55,729 nucleotides of DNA from a virus. The translations under genes and the position numbers were made by a program. The stretch is taken from positions 1-55,729 of IMG/VR virus record IMGVR_UViG_3300045988_139511; one strand, given 5' to 3'. Positions 31,833 through 55,729 of this stretch are shown here, one piece after another; position 1 is the stretch's first letter; the number at the start of each line of letters is the position of its first letter. The notes below the pieces were generated by a model. The model saw nothing but the letters and a program-made list of their open reading frames with translations. It was not told the origin of the DNA and ran no database searches.

Positions 31833-31845
31833 CAAATGACTTGAG

Positions 31846-31881
31846 CTGTAGTTAAAAGATATATAACTATAGTTTTTTTTT
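31846..31881 (+). terminator. Strong intrinsic terminator between the scaffold and capsid genes
   Basis: 9-bp stem CTGTAGTTA/TAACTATAG plus T9. Confidence 0.7.
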
Positions 31882-31912
31882 ATTTTACTAAAGAGAATTG
31901 AGGGGGAGAATT

Positions 31913-32782: not shown

Positions 32783-32857
32783 TAAAGTTAAACAGGAGGG
32801 GCTACATAGTCTCTCCATTTTTTCTTTGTATACGGATTACAGTAAACAGCAAGGTAG

Positions 32858-34043: not shown

Positions 34044-34046
34044 CTT

Positions 34047-34412: not shown

Positions 34413-34415
34413 TTA

Positions 34416-34835: not shown

Positions 34836-34850
34836 AGGAGGACTTAAATA

Positions 34851-35273
34851 ATGTCAGTTACAGCAGGTATGGACATACTATTAAAAGTTAATGTAGCAGA
34901 GACAGGCTCACCAGCTCAGTACGTGGCTATAGCAGGTCAAAGAGGGGCTACACTTAATAGAAGTAGAGACACTATAGATACTACTTGTAAAGATAGTGCT
35001 GGTGGTTGGAAAACTTCTATAGCAGGTATGGGAGAGTGGTCTATAGATACAGACGGTATCTTAATTGACGGAGACGAAAACTTTGCTAAATTAGAAAAAG
35101 CATTTATAAACAGAGAAATATTAAAGGTACAAATGGTTAACTCAAAAACTGGAGCAGGATATGAGGGAGACGTAGTTATTACAGATTTCCCACTAGAGGC
35201 TCCATATGACGACGCTATGACATACTCTTTATCATTGGCAGGAGCTGGAGAGCTTAAAGCTGTACCAGCTTAG
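34851..35273 (+). CDS. Major tail protein paralogue 2
   Basis: 140 aa; DTIDTTCKDSAGGWKTSIAGMGEWSI..., ends LSLAGAGEL. Confidence 0.6.
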   Translation: MSVTAGMDILLKVNVAETGSPAQYVAIAGQRGATLNRSRDTIDTTCKDSAGGWKTSIAGMGEWSIDTDGILIDGDENFAKLEKAFINREILKVQMVNSKTGAGYEGDVVITDFPLEAPYDDAMTYSLSLAGAGELKAVPA

Positions 35274-35320
35274 GCTGAGTTATCAAGAAAGAAATAGCAA
35301 AAAACTGAATAACACATATA

Positions 35321-35351
35321 GAGGCAGTCTCAAAAGCTGTCTCTTTTATTT
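35321..35351 (+). terminator. Intrinsic terminator
   Basis: GAGGCAG/CTGTCTC hairpin plus TTTTATTTT. Confidence 0.6.
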
Positions 35352-35369
35352 TAGCTAAGGTAAAAGAAA

Positions 35370-35387
35370 TTGATTATTAATATTCAA
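35370..35387. promoter_or_regulatory. 18-bp AT palindrome (copy 7, TTGATTATTAATATTCAA)
   Basis: Exact reverse orientation of copy 6. Confidence 0.5.
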
Positions 35388-35415
35388 GTATTTAATTTTG
35401 GGAGGAATAAACACT

Positions 35416-35721
35416 ATGAAAAAATTTGTAACTATTAACGCTGATAAGGCTAGAAATTTAAGATATACATTTAACTCATTAATGATATTAGAGGAGCAAT
35501 TAGATAAGCCTATTACTGAGTTAGGTAACAATATCTCATTTAAAGATATTAATTTACTTGTATGGGCTGGACTATTACATGAGGAGCCAGCACTAACTAG
35601 AGAGCAAGCTGGGGACATTATCGACGCTTGTATAGAAAATGAAGGACTACAGGTATTAATTGAAAAGGCAGGACAGGCTCTGTCTGCTACATTTGGTAAC
35701 ACAGTTAAGCCAAAAAAGTAG
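35416..35721 (+). CDS. Tail assembly chaperone (gpG-like)
   Basis: GGGAGG SD then ATG 35416; precedes the tape measure gene. Confidence 0.65.
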   Translation: MKKFVTINADKARNLRYTFNSLMILEEQLDKPITELGNNISFKDINLLVWAGLLHEEPALTREQAGDIIDACIENEGLQVLIEKAGQALSATFGNTVKPKK

Positions 35722-36110
35722 TAGGCTCAGCTGATACTGGATACATGGAGGGGGAGGCTGTTTTAGCTCCTCCTCCTTCTTTTTTTGACATATTAGAGGA
35801 ATACTACGGAGCCTGTGTGGGGGACTTACATATAGCTCCATCTGAGTTTTGGTTAATGACGCCAGCTGAGGCAGAGATAGCTGTAAAGTACAACACTAAG
35901 AGCAGATTAACTCTTTTAGATAATGCTAGCTTTGCTGTTTATAACTCTATAGGTAAAGCTCTAGGAGGCAAGAAGTGGGAGCCATTATTTAGTAAGGCTG
36001 AGCAAAAACAAAAGCAAGCAGAGACAAAGATAAACAAAGAAGATAAGCAGAAAGAGCTTAACTACTTAAAAGAATTATTTAAGAAAAATAAGGAGGAGTA
36101 TAATGGCTAG
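35416..36110 (+). CDS. Tail assembly chaperone frameshift fusion (gpGT-like), -1 shift at 35718
   Basis: The downstream ORF (35745..36110) is in the -1 frame and has no SD of its own. Confidence 0.6.
35712..35718 (+). other. Programmed -1 frameshift slippery heptamer A_AAA_AAG
   Basis: CCA AAA AAG TAG in the zero frame. The -1 frame stays open from here to 36110. Confidence 0.7.
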
Positions 36111-38922
36111 TAATGATATTTTAGTAACGCTGAGAGCCGATATGAAGGACTTACAAAATTCCTTTAAGAGCTTACAGAATAATCTAACTGGTGCTGAAAA
36201 GAATACTACTAGCCTATCTAATGTACTAAGTAAGATAGGTAAGGTAGCTGGTCTAGCTGTATTAGGTAAGCAGGTAATAGACTTAGGCAAGGACATAGTA
36301 GAGACTGGTAAGAGCTTTGAGTATGAAATGAGTAAAGTTAGTGCTATATCAGGAGCTACAGGAGATGACTTTATAGCTCTTACTAATTTAGCTAAAGAGC
36401 TAGGCTCTACTACAGCTTTTAGTGCCTCAGAGGCGTCTCAGGGTATGCAGTATTTATCCATGGCAGGCTGGAAAACTCAGGATATAATGGCAGGTCTACC
36501 AGCTATCCTAAATTTATCTATAGCCTCAGGTTCAAACCTTGCAAGAGTAGCAGATATAGCGTCGGACGCTATGACAGGTTTCGGTATGCAAGCTAACGAG
36601 GCTGGACACTTTGCCGACGTGTTAGCATATGCAAGCTCTAACGCTAACGTAAACGTAGAATTATTAGGAGAGAGCTTTAAGTACGTAGCTCCATTAGCTC
36701 AAACTACTAACCAATCTATGGAGACTGTGGCTAGTGCTATCTCTAAATTAGGAGACGCCGGTATTAAGGGAAGTGAGGCCGGTACAGCTTTAAGAGCAAT
36801 ACTTAACAGATTAGCGTCAGGTAATGCCTCAACAGTTAAGGCTATGAATGAGCTAGGAGTAGCTATCTATGATAATGACGGTAAAATGAGAAGTATTAAT
36901 ACTATCATAGGGGATGTTACAAGAGCTACGGCTGGAATGAGCGACGAGCAGAAAAATAATTATTTCACTATGATAGCAGGTATGGAGGCTCTATCAGCGT
37001 GGAACGTATTAATGGGAGTTGGTGAGGAAGGACTTAACAGCTTTACAGCAGAGTTAGAAAAAGCTGACGGCTCAGCTCAGGCCATGGCTGATACTATGTC
37101 CGATAACCTTAAAGGCTCTATTGATAGCTTAGAGAGTGCTTTGGAAGGTCTTAAAATAGCTCTTTATGAGAAAGTTAAGGAGCCAGTAAGAGCCGTGGTG
37201 GACGGTATTACTGAGGCTATTGACTGGGTAATGAATTTAGATAAATGGTTTAACGCCCATAAAAGTACTGTTATAGCTCTAGGTAGTGCTTTTCTAATCC
37301 TGACAGCTGGTATAGCTGGCTTTAATTTATATTTAAAGTCAGGGGCTATCATAGGAGGACTAACTACATTAGCTAAAACTATATCCACAGTTATTAAAGT
37401 AGCGTGGGGCTTAAATGTAGCCTTTTTAGCTAATCCTGCTACGTGGGTAGCTATGGGTATTATGGCTCTTGTATTAGCTGGTATAGCTCTATGGAAGAAC
37501 TGGGATACTGTTAAGGCTAAAGCTGTAGAAGTATGGGGAACTATTAAGGAGGTTTTCTCTCAAACGTGGGAGGCTATAAAAACTAAGTGTTCTGAGATAT
37601 GGAACGCTGTAAAAGGGTATCTATTAGAAGTGTGGAACTCTATTAAAGAGGTGGCTAGCTCAGTATGGACAGCTATATCTAACTTCTTTGTATCTATATG
37701 GGAAGGTATAAAAAATTGCTTTAATATAGCCTTAGAGTTTATTAAAGGTATTGTATCAACTGTATTTACTGTAGTTAAGACCATTGTAGAGACTATATGG
37801 AACGCTATAGTAGCTGTATTCCAAGCTGTTTGGGATAAAATAGGTGGAATAGTTAAGGTTGCTGTAGGTATTGTTAGAGCTATTATTGTGGGAACTTTTC
37901 AAGCTATTATGATATTTATAGCTATGATATGGACAGGTATTTGTACTGTATTTAAAACAGCGTGGGACTACTTAAAGAAAACAGTATTTAAGTATGTAAC
38001 TGATATATACAATGACATTAAAAATAAATTTAATGAAGTTAAAACATATATAACAAATATAGTCAACGAGTGGAAAACTATCATATTAAATAAGTGGACC
38101 GAGATTAGAACTAATGTACTAAATAAGGTCAATGAGGTTAAGACTGATATAGTTAATAAATGGAACGATATTAAATCTTATTTATTCTCTAAACTTACTG
38201 AAATTAAAAATGACGTAGTTAATAAGTGGAATGAAATTAAGAATAATATTGTTAACCTAGTAACTAATATCAAGACAGCTTTATTAAATAAGTGGAATGA
38301 GATTAAGACAGACGCTTTAAATAAGTGGAACGCTGTAAAGGCTGACGCTATGGCTGTTTGGAATAATGTCAAGTCTGCTATTATGACGCCTGTTAATAAT
38401 ATAAAAACTAATGTAACTAATGCTTTTAACTCTCTAAAGTCAAATGTATTAGGAGCGTGGAACGGTATTAAATCAGGTATAGCTGGAGTAGTCAACGGTA
38501 TCATTAGAATGATAAATAGTATGATAGGAGCTATGAATAAATTTAGCTTTGACGTGCCTGAGTGGGTACCTGTAATGGGGGGTAAGAGCTTTGGTTTTAA
38601 TATCCCTAAGATACCTGAGGTTAGCTGGCACGCTAAAGGTGGTATATTCACTAAGCCAACTGTAATAGGTAATCACGGCTTTGGTGAGGCTGGTAAGGAG
38701 GCTATATTACCACTACACAAGTTACCAAAGTTAATAGGTATAGATAAACAGCAGGAGCTTATAGATAAAATCTTAGCAGGTGAGGCTGGAGCTACTGGTG
38801 GAGGTAATACTTCTATCCATATTGAACATTTTGAGAACAACAGAGAGCAGGACGTAGCACAGCTAGCTAAAGAGTTAGAGTACTACAGACAACGCTACAA
38901 TTTTGCTAAGGGGGTAAGATAA
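36103..38922 (+). CDS. Tape measure protein
   Basis: 939 aa, TMP N-terminal domain, central TM helices, NKWNEIK-type Trp repeats. Confidence 0.85.
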   Translation: MASNDILVTLRADMKDLQNSFKSLQNNLTGAEKNTTSLSNVLSKIGKVAGLAVLGKQVIDLGKDIVETGKSFEYEMSKVSAISGATGDDFIALTNLAKELGSTTAFSASEASQGMQYLSMAGWKTQDIMAGLPAILNLSIASGSNLARVADIASDAMTGFGMQANEAGHFADVLAYASSNANVNVELLGESFKYVAPLAQTTNQSMETVASAISKLGDAGIKGSEAGTALRAILNRLASGNASTVKAMNELGVAIYDNDGKMRSINTIIGDVTRATAGMSDEQKNNYFTMIAGMEALSAWNVLMGVGEEGLNSFTAELEKADGSAQAMADTMSDNLKGSIDSLESALEGLKIALYEKVKEPVRAVVDGITEAIDWVMNLDKWFNAHKSTVIALGSAFLILTAGIAGFNLYLKSGAIIGGLTTLAKTISTVIKVAWGLNVAFLANPATWVAMGIMALVLAGIALWKNWDTVKAKAVEVWGTIKEVFSQTWEAIKTKCSEIWNAVKGYLLEVWNSIKEVASSVWTAISNFFVSIWEGIKNCFNIALEFIKGIVSTVFTVVKTIVETIWNAIVAVFQAVWDKIGGIVKVAVGIVRAIIVGTFQAIMIFIAMIWTGICTVFKTAWDYLKKTVFKYVTDIYNDIKNKFNEVKTYITNIVNEWKTIILNKWTEIRTNVLNKVNEVKTDIVNKWNDIKSYLFSKLTEIKNDVVNKWNEIKNNIVNLVTNIKTALLNKWNEIKTDALNKWNAVKADAMAVWNNVKSAIMTPVNNIKTNVTNAFNSLKSNVLGAWNGIKSGIAGVVNGIIRMINSMIGAMNKFSFDVPEWVPVMGGKSFGFNIPKIPEVSWHAKGGIFTKPTVIGNHGFGEAGKEAILPLHKLPKLIGIDKQQELIDKILAGEAGATGGGNTSIHIEHFENNREQDVAQLAKELEYYRQRYNFAKGVR

Positions 38923-39635
38923 TGAGTACTAGAAGGGATAAGAGAGGTTATTTCTTTGTTTACAATGGAGTATCTTCTAAACAGTTTAAGATAGGTATAA
39001 AGACAGCTCCTATAAGGACTATACCTGAGAGAAAAGTAAATACTATAGAGGTGCCGTTTAGAGACGGCTCCCTTACTTTAGATACTGGTACTTACGGTAC
39101 ATTTACTATAGATTTTGAGTGTCTAGTAGTGGGGAGCTTTACTCCTCAGCACATTAGAAAAATAAAACGCTGGTTATCTGAGCCTTTTGGTAAGTTGCAA
39201 GTAAGCGACGAGCTGGAGCTGGAGTACGAGGCTAAAATGATAAGTAAGGTAGATTTTGAGGAGTTAGTAGAAAATACTGGCTCTTTTTTAATTACCTTTG
39301 AGTGTCAGCCTTACGCTCACTATAGGCAGGGGCTTTGTCTGCATACTGTCTCAAATAATACAGAGATACATAATGAGACAGATACTATAGCTCTACCGTA
39401 TATGAAGGTCTACGGCTCAGGGAATATAACATTAACTCTTAACGGTGAGCCTATTACCTTTAAGGGAGTATCTGAATATATAGAGGTAGATAGTGAGCTA
39501 ATGGAGTGCTTTAAGGACGACAATGTACTTAATGACAAAATGATAGGTAATTTCCCCATCTTTAAAGTGGGAATAAATACTATTGTATCAAATGCCTCAA
39601 AGATAGATATTTTACCACGCTGGAGAGCCTTATAA
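38922..39635 (+). CDS. Distal tail protein (Dit)
   Basis: 237 aa immediately after the TMP. Confidence 0.65.
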   Translation: MSTRRDKRGYFFVYNGVSSKQFKIGIKTAPIRTIPERKVNTIEVPFRDGSLTLDTGTYGTFTIDFECLVVGSFTPQHIRKIKRWLSEPFGKLQVSDELELEYEAKMISKVDFEELVENTGSFLITFECQPYAHYRQGLCLHTVSNNTEIHNETDTIALPYMKVYGSGNITLTLNGEPITFKGVSEYIEVDSELMECFKDDNVLNDKMIGNFPIFKVGINTIVSNASKIDILPRWRAL

Positions 39636-39677
39636 TATAGGACTACTCCTGTACTTATAAGTAGGAGGGGATAACGA

Positions 39678-41852
39678 ATGATAACACTATATAAACCAAC
39701 TGAGACGGACTTTACACATAACGGGGAGGCTGTCTTAGATAATATAACCATATCAGCTGTTATCCTTCATAAACTTAATGGGGAGTACTCTTTAGAAATT
39801 GAGTTATCGAAGGACGACAGAGGCAAATATAAATTATTAAGACAGCACAGTATTATTAAGGCGTGTGGTCAGCTATTTAGACTGTACTCTCAGGAGAATA
39901 TACAAGATACAGAGGTAAAGATAAAGGCTGTATTATACCACATTACTTATGATATTAACTTAGATATTATAGAGGACTACAGAGCTGTAGACTGTAAAGC
40001 AGACTTTGCATTAAGTAAGGTAGTGCTAGATAAGAGATTTACTGTATTAGAGACAGATATTGAGACTATTAGTACAGCCTACTTTGTGGACGAGCTACCA
40101 TTTGACGGTATACATAAAAAGATACTAGAAAGGTGGGGAGGAGAGCTATTACAGGATAATTTTAATATAGGTATTAAAAAGACTATAGGTATTATATCTC
40201 CAATAGCTGTAACATTTAGAAAGAATATAGCAGGCTTTACGGAGACTAGAGACTATAAGGGAGTATATACAAGAATTAAGCCAGTAGGTAAAGACGGTAT
40301 CACTATAGGAGACGTTAATAATGGAGACGACTGGTTAGTATCTCCTAGAGCTGGAGACTACTTTAAGGTATTATCTGCTGTACTTAAATTTGAGGATATA
40401 GAAAGTCCTTTGGAGCTAAAAGGTAAAGTATTAAATGAGCTTTGGGGAGTAGTAGACCTGCCTGTAGTATCTTTTAAAATAGACTTTATAGACCTATCGA
40501 ATACAGTAGAGTATAAGAGATTTAGTAACCTTAGGGGTCTTAATACTGGGGATACTATAAAAATATATCACGAGTATTTTAATGTAAACCTAGTAGCTAA
40601 GGTACAGGAGACTAAGCGTAACGCCATTACTGGTGAGGTTGAGGAGTTAGTATTAGGAGACCTAGTTAATGACTTTATACAAGGAGTACAGAGTGCTGTA
40701 GAGGACTATGTAGAAAAAAAGGGTAATACTGTTCTTAAACAGACTAAAGATATGATAAGCCTAGAAGTGTCTGAGGTAAGAAAGGAAATGGAGACCAGCT
40801 ACGACGAGCTAGGTAATGCTATAGAAAGCACTAACGAGGTAGTAACTACTTTAAAGGGTAAGCTATCAGTAACAGCTGAGGAAATTAGAGGAGAGTTATC
40901 TAACCTAAAGGAATACGCTGACGGTAGAATAGACAGTAATACGGCGCTTATCTCTCAGACAGCTACTGAGATTAGGGGAGAGGTAGCTAATGAGGTAAAA
41001 GGACTGGACGGTAAAATATCTAGTAATACGTCTCTAATATCTCAAACAGCTACTAATATTAGGTCTGAGATTTCTAATAAGGTAAAAGGGCTAGACGGCA
41101 AAATATCTAGTAATACGTCTCTTATAAATCAGACAGCCTCAGATATACGGTCAGAGGTATCTAAGAGCGTGGACACGCTAGACGGTAAAATAGCTACAGC
41201 AAACAGTAGCATACATCAGAACGCTAGTAGTATTTCTACTAACATCTCAGAGGTAAATAAAGTCAAAAATAAAGTTAGTGGATTAGAGACTATAGTAAGT
41301 TCAAATACTACTAGTATTAGTCAAACGGCTAATAAGGTGGAGATAGTGGCTCAGGCTCAGGCTGACGGTATCTTAAAAGGTAAGACTTATACTTTTGACG
41401 GTAGTGGCTTTAAAATAGGGGGAACTGGTACAACAAAAGCTGAGCATACTGATACATATAGTAAATGGATACATAGCGACGGCTCTTATACTAAGATAGG
41501 TACGACTGGGCTAGAGAGATACTCTAGTAATTTTAATGGAGGTAAGCCATATCAGTACTACACTTATTTAGGCTCAATATATGGGGCCACATCTAATACC
41601 TATGTGCGCTGTAATTTTCCTGAGGAGTTCAAAGGTAAGGACTATGTAGTAAGCTGGTGGGCTGGTAATGCTATACCTGAAAATCATTCGGACTTAATAT
41701 ACGTATGTAACGTAGAAATGTACGACGAGAGTACTAAAGGCTTAGGATACGTAACAGTATTACCTAAATTAATGGTGCGTAATCCTAACAGCTCTGAAAC
41801 ATATCCAGCCTACAGAGGAAAATTAAATGTTATGTATATGGGCTTTTTATAA
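39678..41852 (+). CDS. Tail-associated lysin / Tal-type baseplate hub with coiled-coil repeats
   Basis: N-terminal LYKPTETDFTHNGEAVL prophage-tail-endopeptidase-type start; repeated SSNTSLISQTAT.IRSE units. Confidence 0.65.
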   Translation: MITLYKPTETDFTHNGEAVLDNITISAVILHKLNGEYSLEIELSKDDRGKYKLLRQHSIIKACGQLFRLYSQENIQDTEVKIKAVLYHITYDINLDIIEDYRAVDCKADFALSKVVLDKRFTVLETDIETISTAYFVDELPFDGIHKKILERWGGELLQDNFNIGIKKTIGIISPIAVTFRKNIAGFTETRDYKGVYTRIKPVGKDGITIGDVNNGDDWLVSPRAGDYFKVLSAVLKFEDIESPLELKGKVLNELWGVVDLPVVSFKIDFIDLSNTVEYKRFSNLRGLNTGDTIKIYHEYFNVNLVAKVQETKRNAITGEVEELVLGDLVNDFIQGVQSAVEDYVEKKGNTVLKQTKDMISLEVSEVRKEMETSYDELGNAIESTNEVVTTLKGKLSVTAEEIRGELSNLKEYADGRIDSNTALISQTATEIRGEVANEVKGLDGKISSNTSLISQTATNIRSEISNKVKGLDGKISSNTSLINQTASDIRSEVSKSVDTLDGKIATANSSIHQNASSISTNISEVNKVKNKVSGLETIVSSNTTSISQTANKVEIVAQAQADGILKGKTYTFDGSGFKIGGTGTTKAEHTDTYSKWIHSDGSYTKIGTTGLERYSSNFNGGKPYQYYTYLGSIYGATSNTYVRCNFPEEFKGKDYVVSWWAGNAIPENHSDLIYVCNVEMYDESTKGLGYVTVLPKLMVRNPNSSETYPAYRGKLNVMYMGFL

Positions 41853-41854
41853 AA

Positions 41855-41872
41855 TTGAATATTAATAATCAA
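41855..41872. promoter_or_regulatory. 18-bp AT palindrome (copy 8, TTGAATATTAATAATCAA)
   Basis: Identical to copies 6 and 9. Confidence 0.5.
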
Positions 41873-41886
41873 AAGGGAGAGATATA

Positions 41887-42171
41887 ATGTTTATTATATA
41901 TAGCAAACAAACAGGAAATATAATATCAGCTACAGGCTCAGACCTGTATACAACTATAAAGGATATGTACCCAGTATCCTATATAGATTATGAGATAGTA
42001 TACGACTGTATGAATATATCAACTGACGAGGCTGTATTACAGGATATTAACGGATACAGAGTGGACCTAGAGACAAAGGAGATAGTACCTGTTGGTACTA
42101 AGAAATACACTATAGAGGAGCTAATGTCTTTAGGTCTATTATCTGAAAAAGACTTATATAAACTTAGATAA
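41887..42171 (+). CDS. Hypothetical protein
   Basis: 94-aa ORF with a GGGAGAG SD. Confidence 0.5.
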   Translation: MFIIYSKQTGNIISATGSDLYTTIKDMYPVSYIDYEIVYDCMNISTDEAVLQDINGYRVDLETKEIVPVGTKKYTIEELMSLGLLSEKDLYKLR

Positions 42172-42188
42172 ATTACTTATTAAATACC

Positions 42189-42211
42189 GTATTTACTGTG
42201 CTAGATAGTAG
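42189..42211 (+). promoter_or_regulatory. 23-nt late-region motif GTATTTACTGTGCTAGATAGTAG (copy 2 of 2)
   Basis: 20/23 identical to 26805-26827; upstream of the tail fibre gene. Confidence 0.4.
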
Positions 42212-42245
42212 ATATGGTATCATTTTTTTTTAAAGGAGGAATACA

Positions 42246-45200
42246 ATGGCTAATAGAACGTACTGTATGTTAATTGATATTAAAAGAGACATATTTGAGA
42301 TTATAAAACTTAAGCCAATAGATACAGGTAATAAGCTACACATAAAATTTTCTGAGGACGGAAAACCTGTAGACCTTACAGGACAAACTGTAAAATTTAT
42401 AGCTAAAAAGCCTGACGGTACAGGTGTTTATAATTTTGCTGAAATAATCGACGCTAGGGCTGGAGAGATAGAGGTAAAAATAACTAATCAGATGACAGCC
42501 GTAGATGGAGAGCTTGATTGTGAGATAGAGATAGAGGGTAAAGAGTTAATTACTACTATGACCTTTTATATTACAGTAGATAGAAAATTAAATGACGGTG
42601 ATTTTATAGAGAGTACTAATGAGTTTACAGTATTACAAAAAGCTATTAGAGACTCCTACGAGGCTATAGAGCTAATGGAGACTAAGACTAACACTAAATT
42701 AGAGCAGGTACAGTCTCAGGTAAATACAGCTATAAAAGGTATGAATAGTAAGGCTGATACTAAGTTATCACAGTTACAGTCTCAGGTAAATACAGCTATA
42801 TCTAATATGAATAATACTACTAATACTAAGCTGGCTCAGTTACAGGCTCAGGTAAATACAGCTATTGAGGGAATGAATGAGACAACTGATACAAAGTTAG
42901 TGGACCTACAGCAACAAGTAACAACAGCTATTGCTAGTATGAATAGTAAGGCTGATACTAAGTTAACACAGGTACAGTCTCAGGTAAATAATAAGCTAAC
43001 AGCTATACAGGGACAAGTTGATACATTAGGTTCAACTCTTACTAAAAAGGTAAATGATAAGGTAACAGAGGTTACAGCTACTCAAAATACATTGACTAGT
43101 AAAGTAAATGCTAAGATAGTAGAGTTTACTAATACTGTTAATACTAAAATTACAGAACACACTAGCACTATTAACTCAAAAGTAGCTGAGGTTGATAATA
43201 AGTTACAAACTGTAAATAATAAAATATCAGAGGTTAACTCAACTGTCTCAAATGCTAATTCGACAGTAACGGTATTAAAGAGGGACGTATCTACGGCTAT
43301 AGCTGGTATAGATACTAAGATGGACAGTAAATTAGCTAATAAGTCAGATAAAAATCACACTCACACATCAATACTGGCTACTAATTTATCAGGACAAACA
43401 GTATCTTTAGATACATATAACCTAGCGTCAGGCTCTCCTCAGGTGGCTCATTACTATTGTCCAACTGATGGAGGGGGTAGTGGTATTACTGGTAGACCTA
43501 ACGATAACACTAAGAGCGCCTTTTCTTTAAAGGTCGAGATAATTAGGTGGGCTAATTCTACAGACTATATAACTAAACAAACATATATAAGAGGTGCCGA
43601 GAAGGTTATATATATAAGATATTGTACTAATGGTACGTGGTCAGCGTGGGAAAAGGTGTATACTTCAAACAATAAACCTACTCCAGCAGATATAGGAGCG
43701 TCAGCTAGTAACCATACTCACGACAGCGTGTATCTAGGTAAAACAGCTAAGGCTACAAGTGCTACAATAGCTGATACTGCTAAAGCTGTGGAGTGGGCTA
43801 ATGTAACTGGAAAACCTACTTCATTCGCTCCCACTAGTCATAACCATGATAGTAGTTACTTAAAGCTAAGTGGTGGAAAAATATCTATGGCTGATTATTA
43901 TGGCTTAGTTATCCAAAGAAATCACGCAAGTAATGGAAGTAGTATAGCTTTTAGTAATACTACTGAACAGTTAGGGGGCGTTGGCTTCCAAACTGGTAAA
44001 TTTGTAGTTAGTAGTGGGACTAATACACATGGAGACTTAATGTTAATTACGGCTACTGACGTTACACTAGGCAGTAAAAATGTTACAGCGAGTAAATTTA
44101 CCGGAGCCTTGTCAGGTAATGCCTCAACGGCTACTACGCTACAAACAGCTAGAACTATTAACGGTACGTCTTTTAACGGTAGTGCTAATATAACAACAGC
44201 CAACTGGGGTACAGCTAGAAATATTACTATAGGTAGTACAACTAAATCTGTAAACGGCTCAGCTAACGTAAGCTGGTCTCTATCTGAAATAGGAGCTAGT
44301 GCAAGTAACCATACACATAGTTATCTACCTTTAAGTGGTGGGACTATGACAGGTAAGATAACTACTAGTCATAATACTACTACCTATATAGCAGGTAATC
44401 AGGGTAATGCTTTAATAAACTCCTCAACTACAGCAGGAGCCTACGTTATGCTTTATAGATACCCTTCTAATAATGGTTATTTTACTATGGGAGGCTATCA
44501 AGATAAATACTTATTACAGTATACAAATAAGTCTACCGTAGACGCTGGGACTAACACAGTTAATAAGTCAGTAACATTATTAGATGAGAGTGGTAACACT
44601 AGATTTGCAGGGACAGTATCAGCTCCTACATTTACCGGAGCCTTATCAGGTAACGCCTCAACGACTACAAAGTTACAAACAGCTAGAACTATTAACGGTA
44701 CGTCATTTGATGGTACTGGAAATATTACTACAGCTAACTGGGGTACAGCTAGGACTATTACAATAGGTAATACTAGTAAGTCTGTTAATGGGGCTGGTAA
44801 TGTAAGCTGGTCTCTATCTGAAATAGGGGCTAGTACAGGTGCTGTAGCTAATACGGTAGCACAGAGAGACCATAACTCCGACCTTAGTGTTAGATTAGTT
44901 AGGGCTACATATAGCGACCAAACATCTATATCAGGAGCCTTAGCATTTAGAGTAAATAATAATTCTGACAACTATGTAAGATTTTGCTCTAATACTACAG
45001 CTATAAAAAACTGGTTAGGATTAGGCAGTATTCCTACACACGCTCCGTTAATAACTAATCTTAACTCTCAATTACAGAGTGGCTGGTATAGTTTAAATCC
45101 TAGTACCTCAGGTAGACCGTCAGGTGTGGACTATGGAGTAGTACTGCAAATGAAGTGGTATAACGGTGCCGACTTCTATCAGATATGTATAACCTCTGAT

Positions 45201-45263
45201 AACGCTAGGATGTATACTAGAGGTTATATTAATGGGGGATATACTAGTTGGAATGAAAAATAG
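42246..45263 (+). CDS. Tail fibre / receptor-binding protein with a BppU-like N-terminus
   Basis: BppU_N-like start (DTGNKLHIKF...GQTVKFIAKKPDG), TKL.Q.QSQVNTAI coiled-coil repeats, internal ~205-bp duplication. Confidence 0.75.
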   Translation: MANRTYCMLIDIKRDIFEIIKLKPIDTGNKLHIKFSEDGKPVDLTGQTVKFIAKKPDGTGVYNFAEIIDARAGEIEVKITNQMTAVDGELDCEIEIEGKELITTMTFYITVDRKLNDGDFIESTNEFTVLQKAIRDSYEAIELMETKTNTKLEQVQSQVNTAIKGMNSKADTKLSQLQSQVNTAISNMNNTTNTKLAQLQAQVNTAIEGMNETTDTKLVDLQQQVTTAIASMNSKADTKLTQVQSQVNNKLTAIQGQVDTLGSTLTKKVNDKVTEVTATQNTLTSKVNAKIVEFTNTVNTKITEHTSTINSKVAEVDNKLQTVNNKISEVNSTVSNANSTVTVLKRDVSTAIAGIDTKMDSKLANKSDKNHTHTSILATNLSGQTVSLDTYNLASGSPQVAHYYCPTDGGGSGITGRPNDNTKSAFSLKVEIIRWANSTDYITKQTYIRGAEKVIYIRYCTNGTWSAWEKVYTSNNKPTPADIGASASNHTHDSVYLGKTAKATSATIADTAKAVEWANVTGKPTSFAPTSHNHDSSYLKLSGGKISMADYYGLVIQRNHASNGSSIAFSNTTEQLGGVGFQTGKFVVSSGTNTHGDLMLITATDVTLGSKNVTASKFTGALSGNASTATTLQTARTINGTSFNGSANITTANWGTARNITIGSTTKSVNGSANVSWSLSEIGASASNHTHSYLPLSGGTMTGKITTSHNTTTYIAGNQGNALINSSTTAGAYVMLYRYPSNNGYFTMGGYQDKYLLQYTNKSTVDAGTNTVNKSVTLLDESGNTRFAGTVSAPTFTGALSGNASTTTKLQTARTINGTSFDGTGNITTANWGTARTITIGNTSKSVNGAGNVSWSLSEIGASTGAVANTVAQRDHNSDLSVRLVRATYSDQTSISGALAFRVNNNSDNYVRFCSNTTAIKNWLGLGSIPTHAPLITNLNSQLQSGWYSLNPSTSGRPSGVDYGVVLQMKWYNGADFYQICITSDNARMYTRGYINGGYTSWNEK

Positions 45264-45273
45264 GAGGTAATTT

Positions 45274-45780
45274 ATGTATAGAGTTTATTTGAATATAGAG
45301 ACTAATATAGTAGAGCAGGTATTTGACTTAACAGCAGAGCCTGCTCTAACCGATACGCTAAAAGAAGATACTTTTGGTAATGGAATGTACTGCATAGATA
45401 CAGAGGAGCCTGTAGGCTTTAATCAAAAGTATAATGCCGATACTGAGACATTTGAGATTAATCCTGACTATGTTGAGCCTGATACTACAGTAATACCTAA
45501 TAAGGCTGACGTAGTAGAGAAAAAAACAAAAGAATTAGAAATAGGTATATATCTAACTCAAAGCGCCGTTGACTTCTTGTTAATGTCAACTGCGTCTGAG
45601 ATTAGTATAAAAAATATAAAAGAAAAAGGAGATAAAACTATTATGGCTGGATATTTAGCAATGAGAATTATTAAGGGAATGTTAAACTACAAAGAGGTTA
45701 TTATGAGATACCCTGAGTACAAAGAGGAAATTGATTTTATATTAAAAGCTGAGGGAAAAGGTGATTTAATAGTAGCATAA
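45274..45780 (+). CDS. Hypothetical protein (possible fibre assembly factor)
   Basis: The call rests on position only. Confidence 0.4.
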   Translation: MYRVYLNIETNIVEQVFDLTAEPALTDTLKEDTFGNGMYCIDTEEPVGFNQKYNADTETFEINPDYVEPDTTVIPNKADVVEKKTKELEIGIYLTQSAVDFLLMSTASEISIKNIKEKGDKTIMAGYLAMRIIKGMLNYKEVIMRYPEYKEEIDFILKAEGKGDLIVA

Positions 45781-53554: not shown

Positions 53555-53706
53555 ATAAGATAACTTTAAAAGGTGGGTATATACCGACTAGGCTAGAAGG
53601 TGAGGAACTACAAAAATATCTACAGGAGCGTAAGAGAGGTACTGGCTCCCATAGGTCTAAAAAGGACTACAGGAGACGAGAAAAGCATATAAGGAGAGAT
53701 TATTAA
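53530..53706 (+). CDS. Possible 58-aa basic protein (GTG start)
   Basis: AAGGAAG 10 nt before GTG 53530; the frame is open up to the terminator. Confidence 0.35.
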   Translation: MGKANKSIDKITLKGGYIPTRLEGEELQKYLQERKRGTGSHRSKKDYRRREKHIRRDY

Positions 53707-53732
53707 GGGAGCTGTAACAAGCTCTCTTTTTT
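53707..53732 (+). terminator. Intrinsic terminator (same sequence as 14653)
   Basis: GGGAGCTGTAACAAGCTCTC plus T6. Confidence 0.75.
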
Positions 53733-53743
53733 ATTTGTATTAC
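53713..53743 (+). promoter_or_regulatory. M-class promoter (M11)
   Basis: TGTAAC 53713-53718, 19 nt, TATTAC 53738-53743, TGTAA box follows. Confidence 0.6.
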
Positions 53744-53773
53744 CCTATGTAAAAACATTTGGAGGATATAGAA

Positions 53774-54100
53774 ATGACATTAAATACAAAGAGACAATTA
53801 GAAGTAAATTTATTCGAGGTTAATGGAAGATACTACGTGAGAACTAGAGAAGTAGCTGGAGTGTTAGGAGTTAAACAGCCCTTTGAGTTTACAGCTAATA
53901 TAAAGAGAGTACTAGGGGATAAGGTTATATTATCAGGAGACAAGACTGAGACATTTAGAGACACTACTGAGGACGATAATAGAACTACTTTTATATCAAC
54001 TAAGGACCTATTTAGGTTTTTATACTGTGGGGATATATGCCATAAGATGATAGGGGCAAAAGTTAAAGAGTTAAAAGATGAATTAATTAATTATTTATAG
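53774..54100 (+). CDS. Hypothetical protein (possible Bro-N/KilA-N-like DNA-binding domain)
   Basis: GGAGG SD 8 nt before ATG 53774. Confidence 0.45.
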   Translation: MTLNTKRQLEVNLFEVNGRYYVRTREVAGVLGVKQPFEFTANIKRVLGDKVILSGDKTETFRDTTEDDNRTTFISTKDLFRFLYCGDICHKMIGAKVKELKDELINYL

Positions 54101-54125
54101 GAGCTGTAACCACAGCTCTTTTTTA
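54100..54125 (+). terminator. Intrinsic terminator
   Basis: GAGCTGT/ACAGCTC hairpin plus T6. Confidence 0.75.
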
Positions 54126-54137
54126 TTTACTCTAATT

Positions 54138-54155
54138 TTGATTATTAATATTCAA
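54138..54155. promoter_or_regulatory. 18-bp AT palindrome (copy 10, TTGATTATTAATATTCAA)
   Basis: Overlaps the first base of the M12 -35. Confidence 0.5.
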
Positions 54156-54185
54156 GTAACCAGCTGTAAATATATCTAGTATTAA
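54155..54185 (+). promoter_or_regulatory. M-class promoter (M12, AGTAAC-N19-TATTAA)
   Basis: AGTAAC 54155-54160, 19 nt, TATTAA 54180-54185. Confidence 0.5.
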
Positions 54186-54203
54186 CTCCTGAGGTGATAT
54201 TAA

Positions 54204-55175
54204 ATGATGAAAATAAAAGGACAAGAGCTAGACATTAATTACTATGAGGAGCTGGAGCCTTATTTAGATAAATTTGAGCGTATGCAGATTAGGGGTGAGG
54301 AGCTTACAGCCTGTAGCCCACTAAGAGACGAGAGGAGACCGAGCTTTAGTATTAACTTAGGTACTGGACTATGGATAGACAGAGGGGGAGAAGGTATTAA
54401 CAGCAGGGGCAATATAGTCTCATTGCTGGCTCATTTGAGACAGGAGACCTATGAGGAGACAGCCGACTATTTACTAGAGGTCTACGGCCATATACTGGAT
54501 AATGCCGACGAACTAACATTAGATTTACAGTTAGAGCTGGAGCCTGCTGAGGTTACTCTATTAGCTCAGGAAAAATATGAGAATAGAATTAATAAACCTA
54601 GCGAGTATCTCAAAAGTAGAAAGATAGATATTGAGACACAAAAACTATTTAATACTGGTATATCTGAAAAGGGGGACGCTATCTGCCTACCGTGGCACGA
54701 CTGGCGAGGTCGAATTATTAATATGAAGTATAGAAAGATAAATAGTAAGGAGTTTTGGTACAGCTCAGGAGGTCAGCCAGTCAAAAAGCATTTATATGGG
54801 CTATTCTTAGTCTTAGAGCTACATAAGAAACAGCGTAGGTATAATAAGACCTTATCTCCTGTTTACTTAGTAGAGAGTGAGATAGACGCTTTATGTCTTT
54901 GGTCTATAGGTAAGCCAGCTATAGCATTTGGAGGCTCTAGCATATCAGAGCAACAGCAGGGGCTAATAGTGGATAAGTTGTCAGATTGTGAGCTAATACT
55001 GGCTACGGATAACGATAAAGTAGGTCAGAAGTTTAGAAAGGTATTAGCCAAAGAGCTAGGAGGCTATTTCATTATTAAAGAACTGGAGATACCTGAGGGG
55101 TACAAGGACGTAAACGAGTTGGAGCCTGAGCTAATAAATAATCTGAAACAAAATTTTATTAATTTTTTTAATTGA
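54204..55175 (+). CDS. TOPRIM DNA primase with a degenerate zinc-finger region
   Basis: VYLVESEIDALCLW (Glu), ILATDNDKVGQ (DxD). The N-terminal CSPLRDERRPSFSIN resembles the DnaG CPFH..TPSF motif but lacks the His/Cys ligands. Confidence 0.7.
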   Translation: MMKIKGQELDINYYEELEPYLDKFERMQIRGEELTACSPLRDERRPSFSINLGTGLWIDRGGEGINSRGNIVSLLAHLRQETYEETADYLLEVYGHILDNADELTLDLQLELEPAEVTLLAQEKYENRINKPSEYLKSRKIDIETQKLFNTGISEKGDAICLPWHDWRGRIINMKYRKINSKEFWYSSGGQPVKKHLYGLFLVLELHKKQRRYNKTLSPVYLVESEIDALCLWSIGKPAIAFGGSSISEQQQGLIVDKLSDCELILATDNDKVGQKFRKVLAKELGGYFIIKELEIPEGYKDVNELEPELINNLKQNFINFFN

Positions 55176-55364
55176 ATTAAGATAAAATAAAAAAACCGAC
55201 AAACTTTGTTGAATTGTGAATACTGGAGAAATAATTAGTGTTATTAAGTGCTGTAGAGATAATTTAATTATAAGATATATTATACAGTTTATATGATACA
55301 GAAAAACGTATATAATAAGCATGATGAAAAATGTCGAATTATTGTATATAAATTAAATAACCGA

Positions 55365-55408
55365 GTAGGTATAGCTATAAAAGTATAGCCGTATCTACTT
55401 TTTATTTT
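55365..55408 (+). terminator. Intrinsic terminator in the primase-sigma intergenic region
   Basis: 15-bp stem (1 mismatch, 2 G-U pairs), AAAG loop, TTTTTATTTT. Confidence 0.6.
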
Positions 55409-55480
55409 AATAAAGGTTATACGGAAAACTGTATCATAAAACTGTAATCAGTAATTTATTTTAATATTTTTTATTTAAGT

Positions 55481-55511
55481 TGTAACGAGCAGATAAAAAA
55501 AATCGTATTAC
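55481..55511 (+). promoter_or_regulatory. M-class promoter (M13) in front of the sigma factor gene itself
   Basis: TGTAAC 55481-55486, 19 nt, TATTAC 55506-55511; 28 nt before ATG 55540. Confidence 0.6.
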
Positions 55512-55539
55512 CTTTTAAAAAACACATTGGAGGTACTTT

Positions 55540-55729
55540 ATGAAAAACCTAAACACACAAAAGATTATTACAGAGAGAGTGGTTGAATACAAGAGAACAG
55601 GGGGGACTGTAAAAACTTGTATATACAATGAAATTTTTAATATGTTAACTCCTACTATAGAAAAGAGAGCTGTAAATTTTATAAAATCTACTAACAAAAA
55701 TACTTTACTAGTTGATACTGAGGAGTATA
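55540..55729 (+). CDS. Sigma-70 family (ECF-like) sigma factor, N-terminal part (continues at base 56 via the overlap)
   Basis: GGAGG SD then ATG 55540. 55540..55674 is 45 codons, in frame with 1..540. Confidence 0.7.
   Translation, partial: MKNLNTQKIITERVVEYKRTGGTVKTCIYNEIFNMLTPTIEKRAVNFIKSTNKNTLLVDTEEY
55675..55729. repeat. Assembly overlap (duplicate of bases 1-55)
   Basis: 55/55 identity. Confidence 0.9.

What the first reader, a model, noticed from the sequence alone, without database searches (positions are those of the whole stretch)
55481..55511. Fourteen-copy bipartite promoter TGTAAC-N19-TATTAC, with the -35 often embedded in the loop of the preceding terminator, and one copy driving the phage sigma gene
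Exact 19-nt spacing between (T/G/A)GTAAC and TATTA(C/A/T) occurs 14 times. The sites start at 526, 2136, 4213, 10180, 10753, 14659, 16716, 23383, 51062, 51185, 53713, 54155 and 55481 on the + strand, and at 49459-49429 on the minus strand. Most copies also have a TGTAA/TGTAG box 4 nt downstream. All lie 25-45 nt upstream of replication, recombination or nucleotide-metabolism operons, and I found no copy in the 26.8-46.8 kb structural block. At 10180, 10753, 14659, 51185 and 53713 the TGTAAC is the loop of a GAGCTGTAAC..GCTC-T6 terminator, so the terminator and the next promoter physically overlap. An AAC-containing -35 paired with a (C/T)GTA-type -10 resembles known ECF sigma promoters such as the Bacillus SigX/SigW type. 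The phage encodes an ECF-like sigma (55540..540), and that gene is preceded by one of these sites, as expected for an autoregulated ECF sigma.
Basis: partly seen in the sequence, partly recalled or inferred. Interest (0 to 1): 0.75.

Follow-up and report, generated by a model that had tools for sequence, protein, structure and literature searches.

The report
Phage sigma factor's own promoter set
A 55.7-kb Clostridium-type phage-plasmid carries 14 copies of a three-box promoter in front of its DNA-replication and nucleotide-metabolism genes, most likely read by an unannotated sigma factor that the phage itself encodes; this is a new example of a well-known viral strategy.

Summary
Exactly 14 sites match tGTAAC(a/g)A-N16-GTATTA(c)-N4-TGtAa at 24-35 bits, and nothing else at that spacing exceeds 12 bits. 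Spacing is invariant. All sites lie in the 11% non-coding DNA and point at the next gene; 13 lie 18-46 nt before its start codon. None lies in the structural block. Five have the -35 box inside an intrinsic-terminator hairpin whose T-tract forms the spacer.

The promoter reading is supported by comparison. Relatives keep the boxes while the spacers drift. Homologous sigma-like genes sit at the same position in four other Clostridium phage or prophage lineages. Each lineage has its own repeated motif, including one copy upstream of its own sigma gene. The -10 box tracks the N-terminal (sigma-2-like) segment and the -35 box tracks the C-terminal (sigma-4-like) helix.

The "ECF" label is not supported. 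The protein is a divergent sigma-70-family member. It is nearest to BacL2 and sigma-H/group-3 factors, below ECF model cut-offs, and the promoters lack the ECF CGT -10.

The sigma gene also has conserved elements upstream of its promoter: an invariant TATAAT, two palindromes and a leader terminator.

Verdict: a new phage sigma/promoter pair. No transcription has been measured.

The parts
55481..55520 (+). Class-B promoter in front of the sigma gene (TGTAAC-N18-GTATTAC-N4-TAAAA)
   Evidence: 29.1 bits. TGTAAC and GTATTAC are invariant in 6 of 7 relatives while the spacer varies; the seventh has TGTCAC. The start codon is 28 nt after the -10.
55540..55729 (+). Sigma-like gene, 5' part (continues at 56-540 because the window is circularly permuted)
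   Evidence: 224-aa ORF. Pfam Sigma70_r2 scores 23.1 bits. The best NCBIfam hit is BacL2. The AF2 model has pLDDT 87 and all top Foldseek hits are sigma factors.
1..540 (+). Sigma-like gene, 3' part (bases 1-55 repeat 55675-55729); stop codon at 538-540
   Evidence: The C-terminal helix KVKVRACRVRKEFKEFL aligns with region 4 of sigma-H structure 3mzy.
526..565 (+). Class-B promoter for 599-1084; its -35 box TGT-AAC also encodes Cys-Asn at the sigma C-terminus
   Evidence: 28.1 bits. It is conserved in L003, L004, L005 (as CGTAAC = Arg-Asn) and L007.
2136..2175 (+). Class-B promoter (GGTAAC variant) for the PD-(D/E)XK nuclease / RuvC / Tad2-like operon; terminator 2099-2126 lies just upstream
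   Evidence: 31.1 bits. Terminator. Orthologous sites in L001, L004, L005 and L008.
4213..4252 (+). Class-B promoter for the thymidine kinase / dNK / deoxyribosyltransferase / nucleoside-transporter operon; terminator 4172-4202 lies just upstream
   Evidence: 34.0 bits..
10180..10219 (+). Class-B promoter whose -35 sits in terminator hairpin 10173-10196; the T-tract is the spacer
   Evidence: 33.6 bits. Hairpin.
10753..10792 (+). Class-B promoter for DNA polymerase A; -35 in terminator hairpin 10745-10768
   Evidence: 33.2 bits..
14659..14698 (+). Class-B promoter; -35 in terminator hairpin 14652-14673
   Evidence: 32.1 bits..
16716..16755 (+). Class-B promoter for the dNMP kinase operon, divergent from the Cro/CI-type HTH gene 16186-16581 (minus strand)
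   Evidence: 32.9 bits..
23383..23422 (+). Class-B promoter for 23460-24464
   Evidence: 32.5 bits.
49420..49459 (-). Class-B promoter (TATTAT variant) for the HTH_36/RepL-like gene 48635-49393
   Evidence: 27.0 bits. Conserved in L001, L003 and L004. Pfam result.
51062..51101 (+). Class-B promoter that drives a roughly 105-nt untranslated RNA ending at the next terminator
   Evidence: 33.7 bits. No ORF follows. Fold z-score is -3.15. Conserved in L003, L004 and L008.
51185..51224 (+). Class-B promoter for the helicase-loader-like / DnaB operon; -35 in terminator hairpin 51172-51205
   Evidence: 31.2 bits. Hairpin energy -22 kcal/mol.
53713..53752 (+). Class-B promoter; -35 in terminator hairpin 53705-53728
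   Evidence: 35.1 bits..
54155..54194 (+). Class-B promoter (AGTAAC variant) for the Toprim primase; shortest leader
   Evidence: 24.2 bits. Conserved with a diverged spacer in L003, L004, L005 and L008. Pfam result.
55288..55316 (+). Candidate host sigma-A promoter upstream of the sigma gene (TTTATA-N17-TATAAT), overlapped by the palindrome ATACAGAAAAACGTAT at 55296-55311
   Evidence: The TATAAT is invariant in all 7 relatives, but the -35 is not conserved. Scores 10/12 in the consensus scan.
55363..55410 (+). Leader hairpin plus U-tract (intrinsic terminator) between the candidate sigma-A promoter and the class-B promoter
   Evidence: Fold z-score -3.74. The hairpin is kept in relatives with sequence changes.
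55419..55434 (+). Second copy of the palindrome ATACGG-N4-CTGTAT (candidate operator)
   Evidence: The ATACGGA...GTA core is invariant in 7 relatives. The two best whole-genome matches to the palindrome pattern (1 and 2 mismatches) are both upstream of the sigma gene.

Best explanation
The 14 sites are promoters read by host core RNA polymerase carrying the phage's own 224-aa sigma-70-family protein (55540..540).

Proposed geometry (inferred). The C-terminal sigma-4-like helix-turn-helix reads tGTAAC at about -36 to -31. The N-terminal sigma-2-like domain reads GTATTA at -12 to -7. Transcription starts at the purine of the conserved TG(T/A)AA box (T = -1, G = +1), which is 6 nt after GTATTAC.

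Proposed circuit (inferred). The sigma gene is first switched on from a conserved upstream region containing an invariant TATAAT, two palindromic candidate operators and a leader terminator. It then reinforces itself through its own class-B promoter. It turns on about a dozen replication, recombination and nucleotide-metabolism modules.

Insulation. Ten of the 14 promoters follow an intrinsic terminator within about 110 nt (within about 55 nt for nine of them), so each module is insulated and depends on the sigma. In five cases the terminator and promoter are merged: the -35 box lies in the hairpin and the T-tract is the spacer.

Shown here: motif statistics, placement, conservation, sigma-family membership, and co-variation across lineages. 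Inferred: binding, start site and timing.
For: (1) Clean separation of 14 sites with fixed spacing and fixed orientation, all in non-coding DNA.

(2) In relatives whose sigma is 63-86% identical, the boxes are kept at orthologous positions while the spacers diverge.

(3) These intergenic regions hold no alternative sigma-A-type promoter and mostly follow terminators.

(4) The protein belongs to the sigma-70 family. A family profile hits a sigma-H structure at 2e-11 and SigA, RpoS and FliA at about 1e-6. Foldseek's top hits are all sigma factors for a model of pLDDT 87.

(5) Homologous sigma-like genes (hhalign probability 96%, E 2.6e-9) sit after the primase gene in C. tyrobutyricum phage FA70 and in the C. 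sporogenes prophage; prophages of C. ljungdahlii and of a Clostridium MAG carry further homologues. Each lineage has its own repeated motif, including one copy upstream of its own sigma gene:
- FA70: TGTCACAATC-N11-CCTACATATA, 11 copies, with strict spacing.
- C. sporogenes: GTCACAA-N13-CCTACAT, 8 copies.
- C. ljungdahlii: GTCACAA-N14-CTATACAC, 5 copies.
- Clostridium MAG: GTCACAA-N12-C(C/A)GCTCATTATT, 7 copies.

(6) Domain-wise co-variation. Pairs that share the -10 box are 75-86% identical in the region-2-like segment, against 21-54% for other pairs. Pairs that share the -35 box are 57-76% identical in the region-4-like helix, against 15-31% for other pairs. The two links dissociate in opposite directions. 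Window versus P0014 gives 86% and 31% with the same -10 but a different -35. FA70 or C. sporogenes versus the MAG gives 25-29% and 62-76% with a different -10 but the same -35.

(7) The full motif is essentially absent elsewhere. One viral contig carries it and that contig is a relative. There are four single hits across 185,579 species genomes.
Against: - No transcript, start-site or binding data exist, and the host is unknown.
- The lineages compared infect different Clostridium species, so motif differences could in principle follow host factors rather than the phage protein.
- The -35-swap case (P0014/L006) rests on a single promoter on a 1.5-kb contig.
- Co-variation is counted over six lineages and is partly confounded by phylogeny.
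- The window protein itself is just below the Pfam Sigma70_r2 cut-off (23.1 against 24) and has no PHROG hit.
- Its nearest named family, BacL2, is described only as a 'transcriptional positive regulator', not as a proven sigma factor.
- The -35 of the candidate bootstrap promoter is not conserved.
Confidence: 0.74

Rival explanations
1. The sigma-like protein is the reader but acts as a promoter-bound activator of sigma-A holoenzyme, not as a sigma that replaces sigma-A. This would fit the description of BacL2 as a 'positive regulator' and resembles RinA/ArpU-type factors.
For: The best named family is BacL2, described only as a transcriptional positive regulator. Sequence matches to sigma models are weak for the window protein alone.
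Against: The -10 box ends in C/A in 13 of 14 sites and the -35 is not TTGACA-like, so sigma-A has nothing to hold. The protein has both sigma-2-like and sigma-4-like domains. Each domain co-varies with a different box, at sigma-type spacing.
Confidence: 0.1
2. The motif is read by a host alternative sigma, for example an ECF factor of the SigX type, and the phage sigma-like protein has another target.
For: The -35 TGTAAC and the 17-18 nt spacing equal the published B. subtilis SigX -35.
Against: The -10 lacks CG(A/T)C or CGT, since the base before G is A/T/C. The motif changes with the phage sigma clade, domain by domain. No other repeated motif is left for the phage sigma, and its own gene carries this one. 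The full motif does not recur in any of 185,579 species genomes.
Confidence: 0.07
3. These are host sigma-A promoters of weak consensus (GTAACA-N18-TATTAC) that need no phage factor.
For: This reading gives 4/6 + 4/6 matches. The 49459 copy is picked up by the sigma-70 scan as 9/12.
Against: The invariant bases (T1, G2, G25, the non-T last base, T36, G37) are not sigma-A determinants. The same genome uses perfect 12/12 sigma-A promoters elsewhere. Sister lineages replace the motif with sequences that resemble sigma-A promoters even less.
Confidence: 0.05
4. The boxes are operators for a repressor or another DNA-binding protein and are not promoter elements.
For: There are three GTA-containing boxes. 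Other repeated palindromes in the genome show that site-specific regulators exist.
Against: The boxes are not palindromic. They have strict orientation and distance to start codons and sit directly after terminators, with no other promoter available.
Confidence: 0.03

Closest known systems
Bacillus phage SPO1 gp28 (and gp33/34) with their middle and late promoters
   Same: A phage-encoded sigma-70-family protein redirects host core RNAP from sigma-A promoters to a phage-specific bipartite promoter class that serves DNA-replication genes (own knowledge; the SPO1 cascade is summarised in PMC13401047).
   Different: No detectable sequence relationship was found: no PHROG hit and no tblastn hit in 50,697 phage records. 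The consensus differs. This is a 55-kb temperate-looking phage-plasmid rather than a large virulent myovirus. A promoter of the same class lies upstream of the sigma gene itself.
B. subtilis ECF sigma X promoters (tgtAACnww / CGwCww)
   Same: The -35 hexamer TGTAAC is identical and the spacing is about the same.
   Different: The -10 is GTATTA(c) with a variable base in front, not CG(A/T)C. The protein is below ECF model cut-offs and ranks nearer to sigma-H and group 3. No anti-sigma gene was found.
BacL2 of the Enterococcus faecalis Bac41 bacteriocin locus (NCBIfam NF041508)
   Same: It is the best named family for both the window protein (E 1.4e-7, full length) and FA70 ORF33 (E 1.9e-8). BacL2 is a positive transcriptional regulator of a mobile-element operon.
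   Different: The scores (31-34 bits) are far below the family cut-off of 200, so this is a distant relative and not a member. BacL2's DNA target and its sigma status are not known to me.
Group-5 TcdR/BotR/TetR/UviA sigma factors of clostridial toxin and bacteriocin loci
   Same: They are small divergent sigma-70-family factors on clostridial mobile elements that read non-sigma-A promoters and tend to be autoregulated (own knowledge).
   Different: There is only a marginal BotR hit (E 0.042), and only for the FA70 homologue. The promoter consensus is different.
T4 MotA/AsiA middle promoters (sigma appropriation)
   Same: A phage-specific upstream box replaces the -35 at middle-gene promoters.
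   Different: T4 keeps a sigma-70 -10 (TAnnnT). Here the -10 is non-canonical and co-varies with a sigma-2-like domain.

Membership tests
Sigma-70 family (protein) | Region 2 (sigma-2 domain) homology | tested here: met
   Pfam Sigma70_r2 scores 23.1 bits (cut-off 24) for the window protein and 24.5 for the 91%-identical P0002. 12 of 81 family members hit it, with a best E of 6e-9. The family profile hits sigma-H structure 3mzy at 2e-11 and SigA, RpoS and FliA region 2 at about 1e-6.
Sigma-70 family (protein) | Region 4 (sigma-4 helix-turn-helix) homology and overall fold | tested here: met
   The profile alignment to 3mzy runs through region 4. For an AF2 model of pLDDT 87.4, the top 50 Foldseek PDB hits are all sigma factors, with SigH best at E 4.9e-4.
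Sigma-70 family (protein) | Binds core RNAP and directs promoter-specific initiation | not testable with these tools
   This needs biochemistry.
Sigma-dependent promoter class (DNA) | Two conserved boxes at fixed sigma-like spacing, oriented toward genes, in non-coding DNA | tested here: met
Sigma-dependent promoter class (DNA) | Promoter boxes co-vary with the cognate sigma domains across lineages | tested here: met
   Six lineages were compared. The -10 tracks the region-2-like segment and the -35 tracks the region-4-like helix. The sample is small.
ECF (group 4) sigma factors | Scores above threshold on ECF models | tested here: not met
   TIGR02937 scores 26.5 bits against a cut-off of 42.9. 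Pfam Sigma70_ECF hits 1 of 81 family members. ECF SigW scores only 1e-4, against 2e-11 for sigma-H. No ECF factor is in the Foldseek top 50.
ECF (group 4) sigma factors | Only sigma-2 and sigma-4 domains, no sigma-3 | tested here: inconclusive
   There are two confident helical domains (residues 4-107 and 159-221). The roughly 50-residue segment between them is highly conserved in this clade (up to 96% identity) but is modelled at pLDDT 58-70 with short helices.
ECF (group 4) sigma factors | Promoter with AAC in the -35 and CGT in the -10 | tested here: not met
   AAC is present in 14/14 sites. The -10 is nGTATTA with C before G in only 2 of 14.
ECF (group 4) sigma factors | Co-transcribed anti-sigma factor | tested here: inconclusive
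   The downstream gene 599-1084 has no Pfam or PHROG hit and has its own class-B promoter.
ECF (group 4) sigma factors | Own gene preceded by its cognate promoter (autoregulation) | tested here: met
   55481 is conserved in 6 of 7 relatives. The same arrangement is seen in the four other lineages. This is sequence-level evidence only.
BacL2 family (NF041508) | Score above the family cut-off | tested here: not met
   31.6 bits against a cut-off of 200.
SPO1 gp28-type phage sigma | Sequence homology to gp28 or known phage sigma families | tested here: not met
   There is no PHROG family at E <= 0.001 and no tblastn hit in the phage collection at E <= 0.01.

The most novel reading that the evidence does not exclude
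The BacL2-like proteins of Clostridium phages and prophages are a family of compact, mutually orthogonal sigma factors. In the six lineages compared, the -10 specificity (N-terminal domain) and the -35 specificity (C-terminal helix) vary independently. In this reading they work together with terminator-promoter cassettes, in which the -35 can sit inside the terminator hairpin. Every replication module would then be both insulated and gated by the one phage sigma. A further feature shared across all lineages is a start-site box nTG(A/T)AA.
Probability: 0.45. Interest if true: 0.65.

Novelty: new member of a known kind. Interest (0 to 1): 0.55.

Why it matters
It assigns a function and a DNA target to a small protein family that current phage and domain libraries do not name. 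That family has 214 clusters among 1.84 billion representatives.

It also gives a readable wiring diagram for a group of Clostridium phage-plasmids and prophages: sigma-A promoters, a gated sigma gene, and about a dozen sigma-dependent replication modules.

It offers five naturally diverged sigma/promoter pairs, which could serve as orthogonal expression parts for clostridia.

The domain-by-box co-variation is a rare case in which sigma specificity can be read from genomes alone.

Tried and rejected
- The whole window has no tRNA and no Rfam family at gathering threshold. A permissive Rfam scan of 50.9-55.7 kb gave only noise.
- Megablast of 20 kb against phages found only an 80-nt match.
- tblastn of the sigma against the phage collection found nothing.
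- Searching species genomes for close sigma relatives found none. IMG/VR held one.
- A profile of the close clade alone against PDB gave only noise. The wider family profile was needed.
- The first AF2 model, built from 14 sequences, was mediocre at pLDDT 74.6. It was replaced by an 81-sequence model.
- The two extra regex hits (6149 minus, 12881 minus) were rejected as chance. The site at 20861 remains only a weak off-spacing candidate.
- I considered DNA-hairpin promoters of the N4 type. I rejected them because only 5 of 14 sites have a hairpin and orthologous promoters switch between overlapped and separate forms.
- A mini-ORF in the sigma leader is not conserved.
- Literature searches found no description of this family, of phage FA70 transcription or of this motif.
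Full report
**What the window is.** The first and last 55 bases are identical, so the window is a circularly permuted complete genome of 55,674 bp at 36% G+C. Its genes include:
- large terminase, tail and lysis genes;
- a ParM-like partition gene;
- HTH_36/RepL-like and DnaD-like replication proteins;
- DnaB helicase, a Toprim primase and DNA polymerase A;
- several nucleotide-salvage enzymes;
- a Cro/CI-type repressor and a small serine recombinase.

Three DnaA boxes lie near 50.1 kb. The nearest cultured relatives by terminase are Clostridium tyrobutyricum phages FA67 and FA70 at 67% identity. I read it as a temperate phage-plasmid of a Clostridium-like host. The host itself is not identified.

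**Checking the observation.**
The regex gives 16 hits against 0.37 expected.
- Spacing is strict: 16 hits at N19 and 0-2 at any other spacing from 10 to 29.
- Aligning the 14 sites shows a three-box motif, tGTAAC(a/g)A - N16 - GTATTA(c) - N4 - TGtAa.
- The G before TATTA (14/14) and the T and G of the third box (14/14 and 13/14) were not part of the search pattern. They are therefore independent signal.
- A weight matrix over the three boxes scores the 14 sites at 24-35 bits. Nothing else in either strand exceeds 12 bits, and the maximum over 20 shuffled genomes was 15.5.
- The two extra regex hits are therefore chance.
- Relaxing the spacing by +/-2 adds only one weak candidate, at 20861.
- The genome is 89% coding, yet 12 sites are wholly non-coding and two overlap only the last 5-15 nt of a gene.
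- All 14 point at the next gene. The start codon follows the -10 box by 18-46 nt in 13 cases.
- None lies between 23.4 and 49.4 kb, which contains the structural and lysis block.

**Terminator overlap.** RNA folding and the terminator scan confirm the claim at 10180, 10753, 14659, 51185 and 53713. There, TGTAAC lies in a G+C-rich hairpin (TG in the stem, the rest in the loop), and the hairpin's T-tract fills the promoter spacer. Five more sites (2136, 4213, 51062, 54155, 55481) follow a terminator within about 110 nt, four of them within about 55 nt.

In relatives the same promoter can be merged with its terminator or stand just after it. For example, the helicase-loader promoter is merged in the window and L003 but separate in L001 and L008. 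The primase promoter is merged in L008 but separate here. So the overlap is a compaction of a general terminator-then-promoter cassette. It is not a hairpin-dependent mechanism.

**Not a sigma-A promoter.** The last -10 base is C or A in 13 of 14 sites, where sigma-A needs T. The invariant T1, G2 and G25 are not sigma-A determinants. The same genome holds a separate class of perfect TTGACA-N17-TATAAT promoters, seven of them with the conserved spacer CATTTGAGAC. The host's housekeeping consensus is therefore evidently standard. The class-B intergenic regions hold no alternative sigma-A-like promoter on the right strand.

**The protein.** The ORF 55540..540 encodes 224 aa.
- On its own it is nearly invisible to libraries. 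Pfam Sigma70_r2 scores 23.1 bits against a cut-off of 24. There is no PHROG hit and no phage tblastn hit.
- NCBIfam's best hit is the BacL2 family (E 1.4e-7, full length). Sub-threshold hits follow to the generic sigma-70/ECF model and to SigK, SigE, SigH and SigI.
- BacL2 is described as the positive transcriptional regulator of the enterococcal Bac41 bacteriocin genes.
- An exhaustive profile search finds only 214 clusters among 1.84 billion representatives. Nearly all are 170-300 aa.
- Only 12 of 81 members hit Sigma70_r2, 2 hit r4_2 and 1 hits Sigma70_ECF.
- A profile of those 81 members settles the superfamily. It hits a sigma-H structure (3mzy) at 2e-11 across regions 2 to 4. It hits SigA, RpoS and FliA at about 1e-6 and ECF SigW at 1e-4.
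- With that alignment AlphaFold gives pLDDT 87.4. There are two confident helical domains and a less confident but highly conserved middle segment.
- Foldseek's top 50 PDB hits are all sigma factors, led by B. subtilis SigH, SigD and SigB, C. thermocellum SigI and WhiG/FliA. None is an ECF factor.
- I therefore call it a divergent sigma-70-family protein, nearest to sigma-H/group-3-like factors, and not an ECF sigma.

**Linking protein and motif: close relatives.** Fourteen close homologues exist, all from metagenomes. In contigs whose sigma is 63-86% identical, the motif recurs at orthologous positions with the boxes intact and the spacers diverged. There are 5-11 copies per 20-kb locus. It is always present upstream of the sigma gene. 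The full three-box pattern is otherwise almost absent from public data. One IMG/VR contig carries it and that contig is a relative. There are four single hits in 185,579 species genomes, three of them the same Bacillus cereus-group locus.

**Linking protein and motif: distant lineages.** Phage FA70 has a 200-aa ORF (ORF33) directly after its DnaB and primase genes, the same position as here. Its family is homologous to the window's (hhalign probability 96%, E 2.6e-9) and also hits BacL2 best.

FA70 lacks the window's motif but has its own. It carries 11 copies of TGTCACAATC-N11-CCTACATATA with strictly fixed spacing, in front of the same kinds of genes. One copy lies directly upstream of ORF33.

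Three more lineages with homologous genes each have their own version:

| Lineage | Repeated motif | Copies |
|---|---|---|
| C. sporogenes prophage | GTCACAA-N13-CCTACAT | 8 |
| C. ljungdahlii prophage | GTCACAA-N14-CTATACAC | 5 |
| Clostridium MAG | GTCACAA-N12-C(C/A)GCTCATTATT | 7 |

In every case one copy lies upstream of the sigma-like gene. The most divergent member of the window's own clade (P0014, 49% identical) has TGTCAC-N17-GTATTAC upstream of its gene.

**Domain-by-box co-variation.** I aligned the six proteins and compared a region-2-like segment (window residues 84-112) and the region-4-like helix (residues 196-218).
- Pairs sharing the -10 box are 75-86% identical in the first segment. 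All other pairs are 21-54% identical.
- Pairs sharing the -35 box are 57-76% identical in the second segment. All other pairs are 15-31% identical.
- The two links come apart in opposite directions.
- Window versus P0014 gives 86% and 31%, with the same -10 but a different -35.
- FA70 or C. sporogenes versus the MAG gives 25-29% and 62-76%, with a different -10 but the same -35.

This is what a sigma that reads the -10 with domain 2 and the -35 with domain 4 predicts. It is hard to reconcile with a host factor reading the motif. Three caveats apply. There are only six lineages. The P0014 case rests on a single promoter. The lineages also differ in host.

**The third box.** All five lineages keep nTG(A/T)AA about 4 nt after their otherwise different -10 boxes. 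A feature that stays constant while the sigma-specific boxes change is best explained as the start site. That would be pyrimidine at -1 and purine at +1, placing +1 at the G, 6 nt after GTATTAC. It would put GTATTA at -12 to -7 and TGTAAC at -36 to -31. This is inference and the start site is unmapped.

**How the sigma gene is switched on.** I aligned the region between the primase gene and the sigma gene in seven relatives. Besides the class-B promoter, it shows:
- an invariant TATAAT at 55311-55316, which in the window has TTTATA 17 nt upstream, although that -35 is not conserved;
- a palindrome ATAC(G/A)G-N4-C(C/T)GTAT overlapping it at 55296-55311;
- a hairpin with a U-tract at 55363-55410 (fold z-score -3.74);
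- a second copy of the palindrome at 55419-55434.

The two best whole-genome matches to the palindrome pattern (1 and 2 mismatches) are these two sites; the remaining matches carry 2-3 mismatches and the total count (16) is at chance level (13.4 expected).

I propose that host RNAP starts here under the control of an unidentified operator-binding protein and the leader terminator. The class-B promoter then provides positive feedback. This would solve the bootstrap problem of a purely autoregulated sigma, but it is inferred.

**Comparison with known systems.** Functionally the system works like SPO1 gp28 and its middle promoters. There, host sigma-A promoters act first, then a phage sigma directs a phage-specific promoter class for replication genes. 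There is no detectable homology to known phage sigmas.

The -35 hexamer equals that of B. subtilis SigX. However, the -10, the protein's family scores and the fold ranking all fail the ECF membership tests. BacL2 is the closest named relative but lies far below its family cut-off.

**Verdict.** The promoter reading and the link to the phage sigma are well supported by comparative evidence. The ECF classification is not supported. This is a new, previously unannotated phage sigma/promoter pair, which makes it a new member of a known kind. It has two neat extras: terminator-embedded -35 boxes and genome-readable domain/box co-variation. No transcription has been measured.

Noticed in passing
window 8825, 18958, 19646, 20333, 21865, 25078, 25716 (+); also 46784: A second promoter class has a perfect sigma-A consensus, TTGACA-N17-TATAAT. 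Seven copies share the spacer CATTTGAGAC/T and most (e.g. 8825, 21865, 25078) a downstream TGTCA, which may be an operator. They precede small unknown ORFs, an SprT-like gene and the resolvase. GTCTCAAA/TTTGAGAC also occurs alone near 26770, just before the terminase gene.
   Followed up: partly
window 8788, 19600, 21828, 25040, 30126, 35370, 41855, 51041, 54138: An 18-bp near-palindrome TTGAATATTAATAATCAA occurs at nine loci, nearly all between genes (17 strand-hits against 0.23 expected). It lies 20-35 nt upstream of four sigma-A-type promoters, abuts two class-B -35 boxes and also occurs inside the late block. It is probably a binding site for an unidentified dimeric regulator.
   Followed up: partly
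window 51098-51211: The class-B promoter at 51062 is followed by no ORF. A structured leader of about 105 nt ends at the terminator that carries the next promoter's -35 box. This is a candidate small RNA next to the replication-initiation genes. It is conserved in L003, L004 and L008 and has no Rfam match.
   Followed up: partly
window 10815-13964: The DNA polymerase A gene is split into 10815-12197 and 13035-13964. Structured non-coding DNA and a 178-aa ORF (12415-12951) lie between the halves. Relative L001 has one 788-aa gene. FA70 has the same split, with an ORF annotated as I-HmuI-like endonuclease. Bases 12956-13035 are 90-94% identical to C. difficile phage CD1801 and C. perfringens phage CPQ4. 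This is probably a mobile intron, although Rfam did not call a group I intron.
   Followed up: partly
window 46953-50237: Plasmid-style maintenance region. It holds a ParM-like gene (47309-48229, minus strand) with a small partner gene and a set of CTGAGTATATAC-type repeats in 48230-48634. It also holds iterons and three DnaA boxes (TGTGGATAA) at about 50080-50115. These features suggest a phage-plasmid lifestyle.
   Followed up: no
window 526-531 / sigma codons 221-222: The -35 box TGTAAC of the next promoter doubles as the Cys-Asn codons at the sigma C-terminus. Relatives keep either TGT-AAC (Cys-Asn) or CGT-AAC (Arg-Asn), so the promoter seems to constrain the protein's tail.
   Followed up: partly
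window 54099-54120: This terminator hairpin has TGTAAC in its loop but no -10 box at N19. The working primase promoter (AGTAAC) lies 40 nt further on, after a copy of the 18-bp palindrome. In L008 the orthologous promoter is the merged type, so this looks like a merged cassette split by an insertion.
   Followed up: partly
L011 4917-4956, L012 2233-2272, L014 63-102 (Bacillus cereus group): A conserved intergenic locus in three B. cereus-group genomes carries TGTAAC-N18-GTATTAC-N4-TGTAAC, an exact match to the full phage motif. It may be a host ECF-type promoter or chance. It was not examined further.
   Followed up: no
window 3913-4167 and 7386-8555: By orthology to annotated relatives, the class-B regulon includes a Tad2-like (anti-Thoeris) gene and a nucleoside transporter (Nucleos_tra2). 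The transporter is an unusual phage cargo.
   Followed up: no
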